This document shows positions 5,145-33,137 of a stretch of DNA of 39,860 bases, one piece after another. The notes under the pieces were generated by a model. The model searched no databases. It was not told where the DNA came from and saw only the letters and a list, made by a program, of their open reading frames with translations. The DNA is taken from the UHGV virus genome UHGV-0224961. The stretch is one strand, 5' to 3'. The position numbers and the translations under genes were made by a program. Every line of letters starts with the position of its first letter. The first letter of the stretch is position 1. This DNA comes from a virus.

Positions 5145-5234
5145 TTACCTCGGTCTGTTACCGTTGAGGTAATGATTATGCGTATTTGGTTTGGTGTCAA
5201 TAGATATGAGTTAAAAAAATTACCCGTTAGGTAA
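5145..5234. promoter_or_regulatory. OL-like operator cluster: two perfect TTACC-N5-GGTAA palindromes (5158-5172, 5220-5234) plus a TTACC half-site
   Basis: Palindromes lie between the repressor terminator and the first leftward early gene. Confidence 0.6.
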
Positions 5235-5245
5235 TCAAATAAGCA

Positions 5246-5876: not shown

Positions 5877-5931
5877 TTTCTGGAAAATCGCCTCATATCT
5901 GAATCAGAAGATGATTCAATTTAAAGCAATA

Positions 5932-5994
5932 TTACCCAACAGGTAAATGCACCTCATGGGTAACTATCCTTGATTTTTGTTACCTTATAGGTGA
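5932..5994. promoter_or_regulatory. OR-like operator cluster: TTACC-CAACA-GGTAA (5932-5946), GCACC-TCATG-GGTAA (5949-5963), TTACC-TTATA-GGTGA (5980-5994)
   Basis: One perfect and two imperfect palindromes in the 154-bp divergent region between the repressor and the cro-like gene. Confidence 0.65.
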
Positions 5995-8226: not shown

Positions 8227-8238
8227 ACGCCCACATGA

Positions 8239-8315
8239 TTACCTGATGGGTAATAAAATATTCTAGTATCTATTGATTTCATGTCTTATGTGGTTTTTAA
8301 TTACCTAAGGGGTAA
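8239..8315. promoter_or_regulatory. Two perfect TTACC-N5-GGTAA palindromes (8239-8253, 8301-8315) bracketing a TATCTA-N14-TATGTGGTT promoter-like motif
   Basis: Second palindrome ends 3 nt before the ATG at 8319. Confidence 0.55.
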
Positions 8316-8318
8316 ATC

Positions 8319-8663
8319 ATGAGAAAACAGATACAGGCTCTTGGTCGGCTCAAAACAGGCCAGATGAACAAAACAGAATCTGCGTATTGCCAGCACCTTG
8401 AGCTGCGTAAACGTGCAGGGGAAATCGCATGGTATCGATTCGAGGGTATCAAGCTGCGGTTAGCTGACAACACGTTCTATACGCCAGATTTCGCTGTGAT
8501 GCTCGCCACCGGAGAGATGGAACTGCACGAAGTGAAAGGTTTCTGGACCGACGACGCCAGGGTGAAAACCAAAGTCGCCGCAGATCAGTATCCGTTCCGA
8601 ATCATCGGGGTAACGGTTAAACCAAAGAAAGCAGGTGGTGGCTGGAACATCGAAGAGTTCTGA
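8319..8663 (+). CDS. Small PD-(D/E)xK-like nuclease (VRR-NUC/DUF1064-like)
   Basis: 114 aa; PDF...ELHEVKG arrangement consistent with a D-E-K nuclease core. Confidence 0.5.
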   Translation: MRKQIQALGRLKTGQMNKTESAYCQHLELRKRAGEIAWYRFEGIKLRLADNTFYTPDFAVMLATGEMELHEVKGFWTDDARVKTKVAADQYPFRIIGVTVKPKKAGGGWNIEEF

Positions 8664-10955: not shown

Positions 10956-11377
10956 GCGAAATTAATTACCAGGCACTGCGTGAGGCAGCACAGAACGCGA
11001 AAGATTTAGGTGAGATTAAGAATTACAAGCGAGGTGAGCAAGCTGTTGCCGAATTTGAGTCCTTAATAACGCCACGCATTGTGCTGGCGCTTCTGGATGA
11101 ACGGGAAAGAAACCAGCAATACATAAAACGCCGCGACCAGGAGAACGAGGATATTGCTCTTACTGTTGGGAAGCTGCGTGTTGAGCTTGAAGCCGCAGAG
11201 AAGCGCATTGCAGAACTGTCTGCTAGCCACAGCAAATTGCGCGACACAATGGCTGGCATCCACAACACAATCCGAATGGATGGCGGCTATACGCCACTGG
11301 CAGCAATCCTTAACGCTGCTAAACGCGCATATGAAGAATCAGCAAGCGCAGCTGGCATTCGCATCAAAGGAGAGTGA
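10952..11377 (+). CDS. Ea22-like family protein (paralog 3), coiled-coil
   Basis: N-terminus INYQALREAAQ and PRIVLALLDE shared with paralog 2. Confidence 0.55.
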   Translation: MSEINYQALREAAQNAKDLGEIKNYKRGEQAVAEFESLITPRIVLALLDERERNQQYIKRRDQENEDIALTVGKLRVELEAAEKRIAELSASHSKLRDTMAGIHNTIRMDGGYTPLAAILNAAKRAYEESASAAGIRIKGE

Positions 11378-11580
11378 GTGATATGGATAAAAATACCCCT
11401 GCTTACTGGAGTTTATCACTTGATACCGAATGTCCCAAATGTGGTCACAATTTCGATCTGCTTTGTGATCCAGATTTTTGGGAGTTTTCTGGAGCTAAAC
11501 AGGCATGTGAAGAAATAAAAGGTTACGAAACATGCTGTCCAGAATGTAACCATGAATTTAAAACAGATTTCGTGTATTGA
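11374..11580 (+). CDS. Small zinc-ribbon protein (CPKCG...CPEC)
   Basis: 68 aa with two CxxC pairs. Confidence 0.5.
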   Translation: MSDMDKNTPAYWSLSLDTECPKCGHNFDLLCDPDFWEFSGAKQACEEIKGYETCCPECNHEFKTDFVY

Positions 11581-12493: not shown

Positions 12494-12843
12494 TGGACTA
12501 TTCACAGTTAAGTGATTTTGAAATTAACAGAATGGTAGGAGACATAATTTTTAAAGGCCTTTGGGCGTGTAAACCGGAAACATCAGGGAATAACACCAAC
12601 AAATGGTATTACGGAAATACTGATACAACTTTTGAGCCATTAAACCCTTTACCTGACTACTGCAATAATCCATCGGATGCATGGCCTATTATTGTTGATA
12701 ATAAAATCAGTCTAACCTGCCACCAATCTCGCGGTGAGTGGTCAGCTGTTTTTAATACCGAGAATATTTGCTTTCATGCGAATAATCCACTCCGAGCCGC
12801 CATGATTGTATTTCTCATGATGCAGGAAAATCAGAATGGCTAA
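12490..12843 (+). CDS. NinX-like (DUF2591-like) protein
   Basis: N-terminus MDYSQLSDFEINRMV resembles NinX family proteins as recalled. Confidence 0.4.
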   Translation: MMDYSQLSDFEINRMVGDIIFKGLWACKPETSGNNTNKWYYGNTDTTFEPLNPLPDYCNNPSDAWPIIVDNKISLTCHQSRGEWSAVFNTENICFHANNPLRAAMIVFLMMQENQNG

Positions 12844-13174
12844 ATCAGCAGCAGAGCGCAAAGCCGCTCAGAGAGCCAGACAAGCTGCATCTGGTGTGCG
12901 TAAGCTGGAAATTGTGCTTGATGCTCAGGAAATTGAAATGCTGGAGCGTAACTGTGCCACGCGTCGCCCCGGGCGTGCGCCTTACGAATTTGGTGAGTAT
13001 ATAGCGTTACTGATCCGCCAGGATGATGCACGCGTGCGCGGGCGTATAAAATCGATCAGCAGAAAATGTTGCGGTAAGTGCGGCGAGAGAGTTCCAGTTA
13101 ATTCATGCCCGTGTAATGGTGACTCGCAATGCTGGATGACTAAAGGCTGGCATGAAACGAAATTAATAGTGTGA
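12836..13174 (+). CDS. Hypothetical protein with C-terminal Cys cluster; candidate regulator
   Basis: 112 aa; basic N-terminus; C-terminal CCGKCG...CPC...C; stop codon lies inside the GTGACATGTCAC palindrome. Confidence 0.5.
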   Translation: MAKSAAERKAAQRARQAASGVRKLEIVLDAQEIEMLERNCATRRPGRAPYEFGEYIALLIRQDDARVRGRIKSISRKCCGKCGERVPVNSCPCNGDSQCWMTKGWHETKLIV

Positions 13175-13182
13175 CATGTCAC
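13171..13182. promoter_or_regulatory. Perfect 12-bp palindrome GTGACATGTCAC at an operon end
   Basis: Same palindrome at 32649-32660 and a variant at 15436-15447. Confidence 0.45.
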
Positions 13183-13223
13183 GAGTAGATTATGCATGAT
13201 GAATTTGATGGGTTTTGAATACT

Positions 13224-13249
13224 GCCGCCAACTATGGCGGCTTTATTTT
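13224..13249 (+). terminator. Rho-independent terminator before the terminase operon
   Basis: gccgcca-acta-tggcggc followed by tttatttt. Confidence 0.65.
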
Positions 13250-13260
13250 GCATGGTACTA

Positions 13261-13293
13261 TTACCACAACGGTAACTATTACCACGGTGGTTA
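13261..13293. promoter_or_regulatory. Operator-like TTACC-ACAAC-GGTAA (13261-13275) plus imperfect TTACC-ACGGT-GGTTA (13279-13293) immediately upstream of terS
   Basis: Same palindrome family as at the repressor gene. Confidence 0.5.
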
Positions 13294-13295
13294 TG

Positions 13296-13889
13296 ATGCC
13301 TGCTGAACCTAAAACCTATAAACGCAAATCAACGCAATTTAAGCCACTAACAGCAATGCAGGAGGCTTATTGCCAGTCATACATCAAAACGCCTGAAAAC
13401 CAGACTCAGGCAGCGATTAACGCAGGATTCTCCCCAAATACAGCGGCAGTTAAAGCCAGTGTCATGATGCGCGATGAACGCATTCAAAAACGGATTGCCG
13501 AGTTGATGGAGGAGCGCAACAAACGAATGCGCGTCAGTGCTGATTACGTTCTCATGCGCCTGGTGGAGATCGACCAGATGGACGTGATAGACATCCTCAA
13601 CGACGATGGGAGCCTTAAACCAATCCGCGAGTGGCCGAAAATCTGGCGCACTACGCTTAGCGGCTTTGATCTGTCATCGACCATCATGAACATGAACGAG
13701 GATTCGATAGAGACAATCCTCAAAAAAATTAAATGGCCTGACAAGGTGAAGAACCTTGAGCTGATTGGTAAGCACGTCGATGTCAATGCATTCAAAGAAC
13801 GCCTGGATGTTAATGTGAATGTGACAATTGCTGATCGCATAGCGGCAGCCAGGAAGAGACTGAAAGAACGTCAGGATGGCAATCAGTGA
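13296..13889 (+). CDS. Terminase small subunit
   Basis: Directly upstream of and overlapping TerL; start taken at ATG 13293/13296 (the track ORF begins at a TTG at 13215 that runs through the operator and terminator). Confidence 0.65.
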   Translation: MPAEPKTYKRKSTQFKPLTAMQEAYCQSYIKTPENQTQAAINAGFSPNTAAVKASVMMRDERIQKRIAELMEERNKRMRVSADYVLMRLVEIDQMDVIDILNDDGSLKPIREWPKIWRTTLSGFDLSSTIMNMNEDSIETILKKIKWPDKVKNLELIGKHVDVNAFKERLDVNVNVTIADRIAAARKRLKERQDGNQ

Positions 13890-15361
13890 CAGATGCAGCG
13901 TTATCTCCTGAAGAGCAGTTGATCGAGGATATTGCAGGGTTCACTCACGATCCGCTTGGCTATGCCCTCTATGCGTTCCCGTGGGGGGAAGAGGGGACTG
14001 AATTAGCACATGCCACCGGTCCACGTCAGTGGCAGGCTGATGCGTTCAGAGAGATACGTGATCACCTGCAGAATCCAGAGACGCGATATCAGCCGCTTAT
14101 GCTGGCACGTGCTTCTGGTCACGGTATTGGTAAATCCGCATTCATCTCAATGCTGATCAACTGGGGCATGTCCACTTGCGAGGATTGTAAGGTCGTGGTG
14201 ACCGCCAACACCGACAACCAGCTACGAACGAAGACCTGGCCGGAAATTATCAAGTGGTCGAACCTTGCTATCACGAAAGACTGGTTTACCTGTACCGCTA
14301 CCGCGATGTACAGCAATGACCCTGGGCACGACAAGCGGTGGCGAGCTGACGCAATCCCTTGGTCTGAGCACAACACTGAGGCATTCGCCGGACTACACAA
14401 CGAGCGCAAACGCATCATCGTGGTATTCGATGAGGCGTCGAACATTGCGGATCTGGTGTGGGAAGTTGCCGAGGGTGCGCTAACGGACGAAGACACTGAG
14501 ATTATCTGGGTGGCGTTCGGAAACCCGACGCGTAATACCGGACGTTTCCGCGAATGTTTCCGCAAATATAAACACCGCTGGAAAACTGCGCAGATTGACA
14601 GCCGGACGGTGGAAGGCACTAACAAACAGCAGTTGCAGAAATGGGTTGATGACTACGGGGAAGACAGCGACTTCGTTAAAATCCGTGTGCGCGGCATATT
14701 CCCGGATGCATCTGAATTGCAGTTTATCCCTACCGGACTTACTGACGAGGCAATGAAACGGGTGGTCACCGCTGCGCAGGTGGCACATGCTCCGGTGATA
14801 ATCGGCGTTGACCCGGCATACTCCGGCGTTGATGACGCTGTGATATACCTGCGGCAGGGGCTGCACAGTAAGGTGCTGTGGACTGGCAACAAGACCACTG
14901 ACGATCTGATTATGGCGAAGCGTATCGCTGACTTTGAAGACCAGTACCAGGCTGACGCGGTGTTCATCGACTTCGGTTACGGTACCGGGCTGAAGTCAAT
15001 CGGTGACGGTTGGGGGCGTACATGGCAACTTGTTCCGTTCGGTGGCGCGTCTACTGACCCGCAGATGCTAAACAAGCGCGGGGAGATGTTCAACAGCTGC
15101 AAAACGTGGCTGAAGCTGGGCGGGATGCTGGATGACCAGGAAACAGCGGACGACCTGTCGGCGGCAGAGTACAAAGTTCGCGTGGACGGTAAAATCGTTA
15201 TCGAACCGAAGGAAGATATCAAGGAGCGGCTTGGGCGTTCGCCGGGTAAAGGCGATGCGCTACTGCTGACGTTTGCTTTCCCTGTGTCTAAGCGCCTGCG
15301 AATTCCCGGGCAGCAGAACCAGCAAGGTAAGGCCATCACAGATTACGATCCCTATGCTTAA
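13886..15361 (+). CDS. Terminase large subunit
   Basis: 491 aa; Walker A-like ARASGHGIGKS; C-terminal nuclease-like domain with acidic residues; GTG start overlapping the terS stop. Confidence 0.9.
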   Translation: MTDAALSPEEQLIEDIAGFTHDPLGYALYAFPWGEEGTELAHATGPRQWQADAFREIRDHLQNPETRYQPLMLARASGHGIGKSAFISMLINWGMSTCEDCKVVVTANTDNQLRTKTWPEIIKWSNLAITKDWFTCTATAMYSNDPGHDKRWRADAIPWSEHNTEAFAGLHNERKRIIVVFDEASNIADLVWEVAEGALTDEDTEIIWVAFGNPTRNTGRFRECFRKYKHRWKTAQIDSRTVEGTNKQQLQKWVDDYGEDSDFVKIRVRGIFPDASELQFIPTGLTDEAMKRVVTAAQVAHAPVIIGVDPAYSGVDDAVIYLRQGLHSKVLWTGNKTTDDLIMAKRIADFEDQYQADAVFIDFGYGTGLKSIGDGWGRTWQLVPFGGASTDPQMLNKRGEMFNSCKTWLKLGGMLDDQETADDLSAAEYKVRVDGKIVIEPKEDIKERLGRSPGKGDALLLTFAFPVSKRLRIPGQQNQQGKAITDYDPYA

Positions 15362-15411: not shown

Positions 15412-15447
15412 AGCCAGCTTATCGGCTGGCTGTTTGTGACGTGTCAC
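15412..15447 (+). terminator. Hairpin (agccagc/gctggct) followed by palindrome GTGACGTGTCAC downstream of TerL
   Basis: Weak T-run; may act as a partial terminator or protein-binding site. Confidence 0.3.
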
Positions 15448-15488
15448 GACATTAAAATCCATCGAATTCGTATTTCATGATTCACACC

Positions 15489-15514
15489 TTAAAAAAATGC
15501 CCGGCGAACCGGGC
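15489..15514 (-). terminator. Rho-independent terminator on the minus strand
   Basis: gcccgg-cgaa-ccgggc with a 7-A run on plus (U-run on minus). Confidence 0.55.
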
Positions 15515-15677: not shown

Positions 15678-15754
15678 TGGCGTGGCATGCAGGATTCGAA
15701 CCTGCGACCAACCGCTTAGAAGGCGGTTGCTCTGTCCAACTGAGCTAATGCCAC
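15678..15754 (-). tRNA. tRNA-Arg (anticodon UCU), phage-encoded
   Basis: Reverse complement folds as a canonical 77-nt cloverleaf: acceptor GTGGCAT/ATGCCAC, D-stem GCTC/GAGC, anticodon stem ACCGC/GCGGT, loop CTTCTAA, T-stem GCAGG/CCTGC, TTCGAAT loop, discriminator G, CCA encoded. Confidence 0.85.
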
Positions 15755-16076
15755 AACGCTGAGAGCACTTAGCCTGTTAAGGCGCCACACTTTGTCGCGG
15801 CTCCATAAATGCTCTCATCGTTGTACCCTCGTCTCTTCCGAGGCGTCACACCGAATCGCCGGGATGGTGAATCCCCGTGCGCGGAATAAAACCGCTCGAC
15901 TTGCACATTCCGGCTACCTGGTTCGTTTGCCCGAGCAAGGGAGGGTGCCCCTTAAACGTATCCAGACCGCTATCGTCGCATGTGCCATACGCCGTACTGC
16001 TCAAAATAAAAGCTCACTCCACCTGTTCAATTTAACGACAAGCCAGTCAGGTTAGTAACTGGAATGAACTCTTTGG

Positions 16077-16143
16077 TTACCTGAAAGGTAATAATTCTCG
16101 CGTTAAATGTCAACTATCTACGATAAATAAATCATATGTGGTT
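16077..16143. promoter_or_regulatory. Perfect operator TTACC-TGAAA-GGTAA (16077-16091) plus TATCTA-N14-TATGTGGTT motif (16115-16143) upstream of the head operon
   Basis: A minus-strand TTGACA -35-like hexamer at 16108-16113 points leftward toward the tRNA. Confidence 0.5.
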
Positions 16144-32355: not shown

Positions 32356-32652
32356 ATGCAAGCTATAGGATTCATTGTTTATATCGTCGTTGGTCTTTTT
32401 CAGTTGGCAGCAATTATGGCTGGGCTTGAATCATGGTGGGGATTGCACTGGATAATTGCAGCCCCCATTGCTTTCATCGTGAGCTATATTCCATTTGTTG
32501 GAGCGATTGTTGGTATGGTTGGCGCTGTGGATGTATGGCGGTGGGAGTGGTGGCAGGCTGGCCTTCTCTTCTTTGGTGGGATCATCTTTGCTATTGTCTG
32601 CGGTGGAATGTCATCATTTTTCGAATGGCTATCATTCAGAAAAAGAGCGTGA
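32356..32652 (+). CDS. Small integral membrane protein (about 3 TM segments)
   Basis: 98 aa, very hydrophobic; stop codon lies inside GTGACATGTCAC. Confidence 0.5.
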   Translation: MQAIGFIVYIVVGLFQLAAIMAGLESWWGLHWIIAAPIAFIVSYIPFVGAIVGMVGAVDVWRWEWWQAGLLFFGGIIFAIVCGGMSSFFEWLSFRKRA

Positions 32653-32660
32653 CATGTCAC
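32649..32660. promoter_or_regulatory. Perfect 12-bp palindrome GTGACATGTCAC
   Basis: Identical to 13171-13182; followed by the hairpin at 32661-32678. Confidence 0.45.
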
Positions 32661-32686
32661 AGGCCGCTCTTGCGGCCTTTAAATTT
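32661..32686. terminator. Terminator-like hairpin aggccgc-tctt-gcggcct between convergent genes
   Basis: 7-bp stem followed by ttaaattt. Confidence 0.5.
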
Positions 32687-32963: not shown

Positions 32964-32979
32964 CTGTATATTTATACAG
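32964..32979. promoter_or_regulatory. LexA (SOS) box CTGT-ATATTTAT-ACAG
   Basis: aACTGTATATTTATACAGTa matches the E. coli consensus TACTGT(AT)4ACAGTA with one spacer change; contains a TATAAAT -10-like element on the minus strand. Confidence 0.7.
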
Positions 32980-33018
32980 TAGCAAATAATTTGTTTGCTA
33001 TCCAGCACGTTTTGCGAA

Positions 33019-33073
33019 TCACCTGAAAGGTAATATCTGTTCGTATTTATGGGTTATCTATCCATATGTGGTT
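33019..33073. promoter_or_regulatory. Operator-like TCACC-TGAAA-GGTAA (33019-33033) plus TATCTA...TATGTGGTT motif (33055-33073) upstream of the tailspike
   Basis: Same motif family as at 8239 and 16077. Confidence 0.5.
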
Positions 33074-33137
33074 TTTCAGGTAATAGAATAACCGGATATG
33101 CGGCGCAACGGGTGCTGCGACTATCTGGAGATTTAAC

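What the first reader, a model, noticed from the sequence alone, without database searches (positions are those of the whole stretch)
12836..13182. Cys-cluster protein at the junction before the terminase operon: candidate late regulator
The 112-aa ORF has a basic N-terminus and a C-terminal CCGKCG...CPC...C cluster, and ends inside the GTGACATGTCAC palindrome just before a terminator and the operator-bearing terS promoter. This is where lambdoid phages place late regulators, and no Q-like gene is evident elsewhere.
Basis: inference. Interest (0 to 1): 0.4.

Follow-up and report, generated by a model that had tools for sequence, protein, structure and literature searches.

The report
Phage DNA-binding protein with linked palindrome
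The small cysteine-rich gene just before the terminase genes of this epsilon15/phiV10-like phage encodes a ribbon-helix-helix DNA-binding protein with a zinc-type tail. The palindrome at its stop codon is almost certainly its own binding site, and it recurs at the ends of the phage's late operons and travels with this gene family through many unrelated phages.

Summary
ORF 12836-13174 (112 aa) has a basic N-terminus and a C-terminal Cys cluster. Its TGA stop lies inside GTGACATGTCAC (13171-13182). A terminator (13224-13241) and prophage-repressor-type operators in front of terS follow.

The main new result is that GTGAC-N2-GTCAC is the family's cognate operator.
- It occurs three times in the window, against 0.04 expected.
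- All three copies sit at the 3' boundaries of consecutive rightward operons: its own, the terminase operon and the structural operon.
- It overlaps or abuts the stop codon of homologs down to 33% identity in at least 12 phage lineages.
- Of 120 viral contigs picked only by the palindrome, 44 carry a family member.

The "late regulator" reading is partly supported. The protein is a regulator tied to late and packaging genes. However, its sites lie in transcribed operon ends rather than promoters. The late operons carry repressor operators. Homologs also coexist with Q, Ogr and Mor. A boundary or roadblock role with autoregulation is my best guess, and a Q-like role is not excluded.

The parts
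12836..13174 (+). ORF112, an RHH plus Cys4-type zinc-module protein. It equals PhiV10p55 / epsilon15 gp49 and belongs to PHROG 536. It is the last gene of the rightward early/nin-like operon.
13170..13183 (.). Operator site 1, TGTGACATGTCACG. It contains the TGA stop of ORF112.
   Evidence: It is invariant in PAT1, Kp4865 and epsilon15 although the flanking DNA diverges.
13224..13249 (+). Intrinsic terminator-like hairpin GCCGCCAACTATGGCGGC plus a T-run, 41 nt after site 1.
   Evidence: The epsilon15 and phiV10 records annotate a terminator at this position.
13260..13294 (.). Two adjacent prophage-repressor-type operators, ATTACCACAACGGTAAC and ATTACCACGGTGGTTAT, immediately before and overlapping the terS ribosome-binding site.
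   Evidence: The epsilon15 record carries 'protein_bind repressor' features on the same motif.
13296..13889 (+). terS (Terminase_2). ATG 13296 is the likely start, because the annotated TTG 13215 would read through the terminator.
13886..15361 (+). terL
15412..15431 (.). Hairpin after terL. It is terminator-like, with the better T-run on the - strand.
   Evidence: phiV10 annotates a terminator here.
15435..15448 (.). Operator site 2, TGTGACGTGTCACG, 4 nt after the terL hairpin.
   Evidence: The same position is occupied in epsilon15 (2142), phiV10 (2262) and Kp4865.
32356..32652 (+). Last ORF of the structural operon. Its TGA stop lies inside operator site 3.
   Evidence: The same holds for epsilon15 gp18.
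32648..32661 (.). Operator site 3, CGTGACATGTCACA.
32661..32678 (+). Intrinsic terminator directly abutting site 3.

Best explanation
ORF112 encodes a small sequence-specific DNA-binding protein.

**Protein anatomy (shown by the model).** A conserved basic helix (R8-K9-x2-Q12-R13-x-R15) comes first. A ribbon-helix-helix core that should dimerise follows. A C-terminal C79-x2-C82...C91...C99 module, presumably zinc-bound, completes the protein.

**Operator (shown comparatively).** Its operator is the palindrome YGTGAC-N2-GTCACR.

**Site placement in this phage.** There are three operators, each at the 3' boundary of a rightward transcription unit:
- its own operon, where the operator overlaps its stop codon
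- the terS-terL operon
- the long structural operon, where the operator again overlaps a stop codon

Each operator lies next to an intrinsic terminator. Each also lies upstream of the next operon's repressor-controlled promoter.

**Mode of action (inferred).** The protein acts on RNA polymerases that arrive at these boundaries, not at promoters. Most probably it is a bound obstacle, working as a roadblock or insulator. This would limit read-through from one unit into the next, for example by polymerases made terminator-resistant in the early operon. At its own gene, it would truncate its own mRNA before the stop codon and so give negative autoregulation, as LacI does at O3. On this reading the protein shapes the early/late junction and late-operon expression, but it is not a lambda-style activator of a late promoter.

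For: **Operator enrichment.** The window holds 3 exact sites against 0.04 expected. epsilon15 has them at the same three positions.

**Operator linkage to the gene.**
- The palindrome overlaps or abuts the stop codon of homologs in Uetakeviruses, ZF40, a P2-like Yersinia phage, Pantoea AH07, N15-like Klebsiella 48ST307 and several metagenomic lineages down to 33% identity.
- In Mu-like prophages the ORF runs across the site, which is kept 25-41 nt inside the 3' end and encodes VTGH.
- In the reverse test, 44 of 120 viral stretches chosen only for TTGTGAC-N2-GTCACAA carry a family member. In 17 of them the palindrome overlaps the member's stop.

**DNA site rather than RNA structure.** The half-site sequence is invariant while the central 2 bp vary freely, which marks a DNA site. 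The most conserved non-Cys residues are in the basic helix.

**Sites lie in transcribed DNA.**
- Between adjacent (apparently co-transcribed) genes in 48ST307.
- Inside terL, 28 nt before portal, in the P2-like L105.
- 11-20 nt before the terS ATG in L208 and K303.

**Late promoters.** The late operons here have their own repressor-type operators.

**General knowledge.** RHH proteins are overwhelmingly repressors.
Against: - No experiment bears on this protein, and the direction of regulation is inferred only from site placement and fold class.
- At sites 1 and 3 an intrinsic terminator follows anyway, so a roadblock looks redundant unless the incoming polymerases are antiterminated. That is itself an inference, drawn from the internal terminators annotated in the phiV10 early operon.
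- A negative factor made from the early operon has no obvious role in switching late genes on.
- In L100, L095 and L208 the gene sits exactly where lambda Q sits, upstream of a strong promoter, a leader hairpin and terminators. No Q was found within the 5 kb upstream in L100.
- Terminator adjacency is not general across the family: 11 of 72 sites lie within 60 nt of a terminator, against 62 of 1100 control positions.
- One 12-bp palindrome may bind a single RHH dimer too weakly to stop RNA polymerase.
Confidence: 0.42

Rival explanations
1. The protein is a positive late regulator. It binds the palindrome and either activates nearby late promoters or, like lambda Q or RfaH at ops, is handed from its DNA site to RNA polymerase. 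The polymerase would then read through the adjacent terminators into terS-terL, the structural genes, and the tail-fibre and lysis genes.
For: - The gene occupies the Q position as the last early gene before the late genes, both here and in L100, L095, L208 and K303.
- No Q-like gene was found in the window or within 5 kb upstream in L100.
- All three sites here adjoin terminators that interrupt one long rightward late transcription path. The last late terminator, after Rz, has no site.
- Extra sites in other phages lie in front of terS.
- In L120/L159 two sites 33 bp apart lie just upstream of a TATAAT that lacks a good -35, which is an activator-like layout.
- There is a weak profile resemblance of residues 49-110 to the RNA-polymerase-binding proteins TraR and YbiI, with E of 0.01-0.03.
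Against: - The sites are not at fixed promoter positions. They lie about 92, 110 and 135 bp upstream of the putative start sites in L100, L095 and L208. Site 1 lies upstream of a terminator rather than in the terS promoter.
- Site 2 lies after the terL hairpin.
- Homologs coexist with Q, Ogr and Mor.
- The late operons carry repressor operators.
- The TraR resemblance is not backed by Pfam or by fold searches.
- The dominant placement at the gene's own 3' end is not explained.
Confidence: 0.27
2. The protein is a DNA-organising or packaging accessory protein. It would work like MatP on matS, bridging its few sites on the phage genome. Here two of them bracket terS-terL. The bridging would loop or mark DNA for packaging or replication rather than control transcription.
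For: - The half-sites are identical to those of matS (GTGAC[AG]N[TC]GTCAC; PMC3116907, PMC3603311).
- Both proteins have a basic helix before the RHH strand.
- Sites flank the terminase genes in epsilon15-like phages and sit at the terL/portal junction or before terS elsewhere.
- There are only 2-3 sites per genome.
Against: - The spacer is 2 bp rather than 3, and the window has no matS-type 13-mer.
- hhalign against MatP is not significant.
- The protein lacks MatP's four-helix bundle and coiled coil.
- Many lineages have a single site, at the gene's own end, which leaves nothing to bridge.
- The gene lies in the early regulatory region, not the packaging module.
Confidence: 0.12
3. The palindrome is bound by a host factor or is an RNA or mRNA-end element, and its closeness to this gene is incidental.
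For: - The palindrome resembles the host MatP and SlmA sites in its outer bases (PMC3116907).
- It lies next to hairpins in this phage.
Against: - Gene and site are associated in both directions across hosts from Escherichia to Vibrio and Aeromonas and across unrelated phage types.
- The half-site sequence is invariant and shows no compensatory changes, and the centre is variable, which argues against an RNA stem.
- No Rfam family matches.
Confidence: 0.05

Closest known systems
Phage and plasmid ribbon-helix-helix regulators (P22 Arc and Mnt, CopG, TacA/ParD antitoxins, AmrZ, TraM)
   Different: No Pfam RHH model reaches its threshold. An extra conserved basic N-terminal helix is present. A C-terminal Cys4-type module has no structural match. 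The operator lies at the 3' end of the protein's own gene rather than in its promoter.
E. coli MatP / matS
   Same: MatP is an RHH protein with a basic helix before the strand. The palindromic site has identical GTGAC/GTCAC half-sites. Sites are few and dispersed.
   Different: matS is 13 bp with a 3-bp spacer, whereas this site is 12 bp with a 2-bp spacer. No significant sequence relation was found. The accessory domains differ. MatP is chromosomal and not a transcription factor.
Lambdoid Q antiterminators with pR'/tR'
   Same: The gene lies immediately upstream of the late genes. In L100, L095 and L208 it is followed by a strong sigma70-like promoter, a conserved leader hairpin and terminators. 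Q-lambda also combines DNA binding with a zinc finger (my own knowledge).
   Different: No similarity to any Q family was found. The site is not inside the promoter and its distance from the promoter varies. In 48ST307 the protein coexists with a genuine Q.
LacI roadblock at O3 with tmRNA tagging (Abo et al. 2000, cited from my own knowledge)
   Same: The regulator's operator overlaps the 3' end of its own coding region, so the bound protein can truncate its own mRNA before the stop codon.
   Different: The fold is unrelated. The mechanism has not been tested here.
DksA/TraR C4 zinc-finger proteins, common in phage nin regions
   Same: The profile of residues 49-110 gives its three best PDB sequence hits to YbiI and TraR, with E of 0.01-0.03. 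The shared pattern is a long helix, then C-x2-C-G-x2-(L/I)-P, then a short C-terminal helix.
   Different: The cysteine spacing is C-x2-C-x8-C-x7-C rather than C-x2-C-x17-C-x2-C. No acidic tip is present. No Pfam hit and no fold hit were found.

Membership tests
PHROG 536 ('transcriptional regulator') | Full-length match to the PHROG profile | tested here: met
   E = 3.8e-54, residues 1-111 against profile positions 2-114 of 115.
Ribbon-helix-helix superfamily (CopG/Arc/MetJ) | Beta-strand, helix, helix core fold | tested here: met
Ribbon-helix-helix superfamily (CopG/Arc/MetJ) | Sequence match to an RHH Pfam model above the gathering score | tested here: not met
   Only sub-threshold hits to RepB-RCR_reg, RHH_5, RHH_1 and TacA1, in 1-3 of 63 members.
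Ribbon-helix-helix superfamily (CopG/Arc/MetJ) | Homodimer with a two-stranded antiparallel ribbon inserted into the major groove | not testable with these tools
   Only monomer prediction was available.
Ribbon-helix-helix superfamily (CopG/Arc/MetJ) | Short palindromic or repeated operator | tested here: met
   The palindrome YGTGAC-N2-GTCACR is linked to the gene in both search directions. Binding itself has not been shown.
Lambdoid antiterminator Q (PF03589, PF06530, PF06323) | Sequence membership | tested here: not met
   No Pfam hit at E <= 1.
Lambdoid antiterminator Q (PF03589, PF06530, PF06323) | Gene directly upstream of the late promoter/terminator unit and the late genes | tested here: met
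   Window; L100, L095 and L208.
Lambdoid antiterminator Q (PF03589, PF06530, PF06323) | Binding element within or next to the late promoter at a fixed distance from a promoter-proximal pause | tested here: not met
   The site lies about 92-135 bp upstream of the putative starts in L100, L095 and L208. In the window it lies upstream of a terminator rather than in the terS promoter.
DksA/TraR zinc finger (PF01258) | C-x2-C-x17-C-x2-C finger and a Pfam match | tested here: not met
   The spacing is C79-x2-C82-x8-C91-x7-C99. No Pfam hit was found. Only weak profile hits to TraR and YbiI, with E of 0.01-0.03.
Ogr/Delta late activators (PF04606) | Ogr_Delta zinc finger | tested here: not met
   ORF112 gives no hit. 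The P2-like Yersinia phage that carries a homolog also has a true Ogr_Delta protein, E = 3.9e-21.
MatP | 13-bp matS site, MatP sequence family, four-helix bundle and C-terminal coiled coil | tested here: not met
   The site is a 12-mer with a 2-bp spacer, and the window has no 13-mer. hhalign is not significant. The model has no such extra domains.
Anti-phage defence proteins (PADLOC) | Match to any PADLOC model | tested here: not met
   No hit for ORF112 or for three distant homologs.

The most novel reading that the evidence does not exclude
The family is a previously unrecognised class of phage transcription-elongation regulators. An RHH-zinc protein would park on a short palindrome inside transcribed DNA, typically at its own stop codon, in the terS leader or beside terminators, and engage passing RNA polymerase. 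In phages such as L100, L095, L208 and epsilon15-like phages that lack Q, it would be the functional counterpart of Q, a DNA-loaded antiterminator with a fold different from all known Q proteins. A second, independent novel reading is that it shares ancestry with MatP, giving a phage origin or a phage mimic of the matS-type half-site.
Probability: 0.2. Interest if true: 0.8.

Novelty: new variant of a known kind. Interest (0 to 1): 0.55.

Why it matters
epsilon15/phiV10-like phages are used for O157 detection, phage typing and structural work, yet how they schedule their late genes is unknown. This analysis turns an anonymous "transcriptional regulator" into a testable protein-operator pair: a 112-aa protein, a defined 14-bp site and three mapped targets at operon boundaries. 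The same pair recurs in P2-like, Mu-like, N15-like, ZF40-like and Vibrio/Aeromonas phages.

If the protein works from inside transcribed DNA, as a roadblock/insulator or as a loaded antiterminator, it would add a new architecture to phage gene timing. It would also provide a compact, orthogonal DNA-binding part. The matS-like half-site raises a further question about cross-talk or shared ancestry with host chromosome-organising proteins.

Tried and rejected
- **Pfam, NCBIfam and PADLOC scans of ORF112.** No family reached threshold. The only hits were a spurious DUF4457 and a sub-threshold 'LexA regulated protein'.
- **Sequence search of the PDB with the single protein.** Nothing meaningful was found.
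- **Foldseek against the PDB and BFVD.** The only hits were a weak RHH protein and a fragment of the same family, so the zinc module has no structural analogue. The afdb50 library was unavailable.
- **TraR/DksA homology.** It is suggested only by profile-to-sequence E-values of 0.01-0.03 and is unsupported by Pfam or fold searches, so I treat it as unproven.
- **MatP homology.** hhalign was not significant, so I keep MatP as an analogy only.
- **A sigma70 promoter using GTGACA of the palindrome as its -35 element.** It scores 9 of 12 at sites 1 and 3(-), but such matches are no commoner than in shuffled sequence, and the element is not conserved in PAT1, ZF40, L095 or L100. Rejected.
- **The palindrome as part of a structured RNA.** No Rfam hit was found, and the half-sites are sequence-invariant without covariation. 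Rejected.
- **General coupling of sites to terminators.** The enrichment is only modest, so the coupling is specific to epsilon15-like phages.
- **The direct repeats ACTATTACCAC as this protein's operator.** They belong to the repressor-type ATTACC-N5-GGTAAT motif instead.
- **Toxin-antitoxin reading.** Neither the upstream nor the downstream gene is conserved as a partner.
- **Alignment-based locus searches.** These failed because no stretch was conserved enough.
- **Literature.** No paper mentions the palindrome. The epsilon15 and SPC32H primary papers are not held.

Full report
**What the window is.** The window is a temperate podophage or prophage of the epsilon15/phiV10 group (genus Uetakevirus). 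Stretches of it match phiV10, PAS61, ZX5, O157 typing phages 9 and 10 and others at 96-98% identity. The ORF in question corresponds to PhiV10p55, which RefSeq labels "transcriptional regulator", and to epsilon15 gp49, labelled "hypothetical; similar to N15 gp46". It is the last gene of the rightward early/nin-like operon and lies directly upstream of terS.

**The observation.**
- ORF 12836-13174 encodes 112 aa, and its start overlaps the stop of the preceding NinX-like gene.
- Its TGA stop (13172-13174) lies inside GTGACATGTCAC (13171-13182).
- A GC-rich hairpin with a T-run follows at 13224-13241.
- Two copies of ATTACC-N5-GGTAAY follow at 13260-13294, ending at the terS start (ATG 13296).
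- That motif has 14 matches in the window against 1.2 expected. It sits in the immunity region and upstream of the 8319 operon, terS, the portal operon and the tail-fibre gene.
- The epsilon15 GenBank record annotates the same motif as repressor binding sites, upstream of terS, gp3/portal and the tailspike gene and at several early-region positions.

**The protein.**
- *Family membership.* ORF112 matches PHROG 536 "transcriptional regulator" at E = 3.8e-54. It matches no Pfam, NCBIfam or PADLOC family.
- *Family size.* The family is small, with 153 representatives at 50% identity among 1.84 billion proteins.
- *Conservation.* In an alignment of 63 full-length members down to 27% identity, R13, C79 and C82 are invariant. 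R8, E54, L59, P87 and C99 are at least 95% conserved. A third Cys sits in the LPxGC column.
- *Predicted structure.* AlphaFold gives a confident model with mean pLDDT 92. It has helix 5-19 (the basic RK..QR.R motif), an extended segment at 20-29, helices 30-42 and 52-74, a cysteine knuckle, and helix 100-108.
- *TraR/YbiI resemblance.* A family profile gives its three best PDB sequence hits to the DksA/TraR-type proteins YbiI and TraR, with E of 0.01-0.03 over residues 49-110. The cysteine spacing differs, and neither Pfam nor fold search supports the link. I record this as a lead only.

**The palindrome is the family's operator.**

This is the main new result.

*In the window and its close relatives.* Exact GTGAC-N2-GTCAC occurs three times in the window, at 13171, 15436 and 32649, against 0.04 expected. 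epsilon15 has three exact copies at the homologous positions, and phiV10 has them too. In PAT1 and Kp4865 the 14-mer TGTGACATGTCACG is invariant although the flanking coding and non-coding DNA differ.

*In unrelated phages.* The same palindrome overlaps or abuts the homolog's stop codon in the following:
- Pectobacterium myophage ZF40
- a P2-like Yersinia phage
- Pantoea phage AH07
- N15-like Klebsiella phage 48ST307
- metagenomic lineages with 33-36% identity (L095, L097, L100, L106, L160)

In Mu-like prophages the ORF extends across the site, which is kept 25-41 nt inside the 3' end and translated as VTGH.

*Reverse test.* I took 120 viral stretches chosen only because they contain TTGTGAC-N2-GTCACAA. 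Of these, 44 carry a family member, falling into 14 protein clusters. In 17 of them the palindrome overlaps the member's TGA stop. For so rare a family this is an enrichment of two to three orders of magnitude.

*DNA site, not RNA stem.* Over 76 distinct sites the half-sites are sequence-invariant, the central two bases vary freely, and the flanks prefer Y and R. This is the signature of a DNA-binding site and not of an RNA stem. No Rfam family matches, and no paper in the library mentions the sequence.

*Resemblance to matS.* The half-sites equal those of matS (GTGAC[AG]N[TC]GTCAC; PMC3116907, PMC3603311), but the spacer is 2 bp rather than 3. The window has no matS-type 13-mer. hhalign against MatP is not significant, although the RHH elements align in register.

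**Where the sites are.** In this phage the layout repeats three times: operon, then site plus intrinsic terminator, then repressor-type operator or promoter, then the next operon.

| Site | Position relative to genes | Position relative to terminator |
|---|---|---|
| 1 | Overlaps the stop of ORF112 | 41 nt before the terminator, which precedes the terS operators |
| 2 | After terL, before a leftward moron region containing tRNA-Arg | 4 nt after the terL hairpin |
| 3 | Overlaps the TGA stop of the last structural-operon ORF (32356-32652) | Abuts a terminator |

After site 3 comes a leftward LexA-box gene, and then the tail-fibre operator.

In other lineages the extra sites also lie at late genes:
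- 11-20 nt before the terS ATG in Vibrio phage K303 and in L208
- inside the 3' end of terL, 28 nt before portal, in the P2-like L105
- before a minor tail gene in L132
- before and within the transposase gene of Mu-like prophages
- in the 5' leader of the family gene itself in an Aeromonas phage and in L131/L132

Many of these positions are unavoidably inside transcribed DNA. Adjacency to terminators is not a general rule: 11 of 72 sites lie within 60 nt of a terminator, against 62 of 1100 random positions.

**What this means for the late-regulator idea.**

*In favour.*
- The protein is a DNA-binding regulator at the early/late junction.
- Its regulon is tied to packaging and structural genes in several unrelated phages.
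- No Q-like protein was found among the window's early genes.
- In L100, L095 and L208 the gene is followed by a conserved unit that resembles lambda pR'/tR'. The unit comprises a sigma70-like promoter (TTGACA-17-TATCTT in L100), a leader hairpin GTGGTG-N-CGCCAC and strong terminators, placed ahead of the lysis and terminase genes. No Q was found within the 5 kb upstream in L100.

*Against a classical activator or Q.*
- The site is not in a promoter, and its distance to the putative promoters varies (about 92, 110 and 135 bp).
- Homologs coexist with a genuine Q (PF06323, E = 1e-86) in 48ST307, with Ogr/Delta in the Yersinia phage and with Mor in a Mu-like prophage.
- The late operons here carry repressor-type operators of their own.
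- The dominant placement at the protein's own 3' end is not explained.

**Best mechanistic reading and its rivals.**

*Best reading, a boundary roadblock (about 0.4).* In roughly 17 of 25 lineages examined the operator lies within -41 to +3 nt of the protein's own stop codon, whatever lies downstream. What follows includes terS, NinB, xis, a LexA-controlled gene, GemA/Mor, or a promoter unit. The context-independent explanation is action on elongating polymerases at the end of its own gene. A bound dimer would stall RNA polymerase before the stop codon. This would give negative autoregulation, as LacI does at O3 (my own knowledge), and polarity on whatever follows. In this phage it would insulate successive repressor-controlled operons and the leftward morons from read-through. 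That includes read-through by polymerases that may have been made terminator-resistant in the early operon, which phiV10 annotates with internal terminators. The fold-class prior also favours a negative role, because RHH proteins are mostly repressors.

*Rival 1, positive regulation (about 0.27).* The DNA-bound protein is handed to passing polymerase and suppresses the adjacent terminators. This would be a Q or RfaH logic carried by a new fold.

*Rival 2, non-transcriptional role (about 0.12).* The protein bridges sites or assists packaging in a MatP-like way.

*Rival 3, incidental palindrome (about 0.05).* A host-factor or RNA explanation of the palindrome is unlikely.

What is shown is the fold class, the Cys conservation, the operator identity by comparative genomics, and the site map. 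What is inferred is zinc binding, dimerisation, which residues read the DNA, and the sign and mechanism of regulation.

**Novelty and verdict.** The family is already labelled "transcriptional regulator" in PHROGs and RefSeq, so the bare idea of a regulator is not new. No member is characterised, however, and there is no Pfam family and no solved structure. The following appear to be undescribed: the operator, its unusual position at stop codons and operon ends, its matS-like half-sites, and its spread through podo-, myo-, Mu-like, P2-like and N15-like phages.

I rate it a new variant of a known kind, namely an RHH regulator with a zinc module and a 3'-end operator. Interest is moderate to good because the hypothesis is now directly testable with one protein and one 14-bp oligonucleotide.

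Noticed in passing
window 5157-5173, 5219-5235, 5931-5947, 8238-8254, 8300-8316, 13260-13294, 16076-16092, 33018-33034: The palindrome ATTACC-N5-GGTAAT has 14 matches against 1.2 expected. It lies in the immunity region and also in front of the 8319 operon, terS, the portal operon and the tail-fibre gene. The epsilon15 record annotates the same motif as repressor sites. Late operons therefore appear to be under direct prophage-repressor control, which is unusual for a lambdoid-style genome.
   Followed up: partly
window 32964-32979 and the - strand ORF ending at 32685 (likely start 32942): A perfect LexA-type box (CTGT-N8-ACAG) lies just upstream of a small leftward gene, between site 3 with its terminator and the tail-fibre operator. 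The gene is a candidate SOS-controlled antirepressor, as I recall being described for the epsilon15-like phage SPC32H.
   Followed up: no
window 15678-15754 (- strand): A tRNA-Arg(TCT) gene lies in a leftward moron region between terL and the portal operon. The region is flanked by leftward terminators at 15499-15514 and 15412-15431.
   Followed up: partly
window 13215-13295: The phiV10 annotation starts terS at a TTG equivalent to 13215. That start would read through the terminator hairpin and the repressor-type operators. ATG 13296, preceded by GGTGG, is the more plausible start.
   Followed up: partly
window about 8283-8296, 16117-16127 and 33062-33075: A shared motif, (C)ATATGTGGTT(T/A), lies next to the repressor-type operators of three operons (8319, portal, tail fibre). 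It may be a promoter element or a second regulator's site.
   Followed up: no
L100 5450-5660; L095 5435-5545; L208 about 8270-8400: A conserved small transcription unit lies downstream of the homolog in three distant lineages. It has a sigma70-like promoter, a leader hairpin GTGGTG-N(4-9)-CGCCAC at about +12 to +32, and strong terminators, and it precedes the lysis and terminase genes. It resembles lambda pR'/6S RNA/tR', or possibly a put-like RNA. It has no Rfam match.
   Followed up: partly
L090 (Klebsiella phage Kp4865-1) 3291-3400: Directly after the homolog's operator, a LexA box (TACTGTTTAAATATACAGTA) overlaps a TTGACT promoter and precedes a gene whose N-terminus (reading by eye) looks UmuD-like. 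I take this to be a moron inserted between the regulator gene and the terminase genes.
   Followed up: no
L104 670-681 and 1111-1122 (oriented coordinates); the same in L157: In Mu-like prophages two further operators lie just before and about 440 bp inside the transposase (A) gene. This suggests feedback on the early operon.
   Followed up: no
L092 251-262 and 3032-3043; L101/L102 6599-6610: A non-palindromic variant site, GTGACCGGACAC, recurs in two independent lineages: an Aeromonas phage and a metagenomic phage. Each copy lies 13-14 nt before a start codon, including that of the family gene itself.
   Followed up: no
window 11374-11580: A 68-aa ORF with two CxxC pairs (CPKCG...CPEC) lies in the nin-like region. 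It matches PHROG 4173 and gives only weak zinc-ribbon hits. It is a second small Cys protein in the same operon.
   Followed up: no
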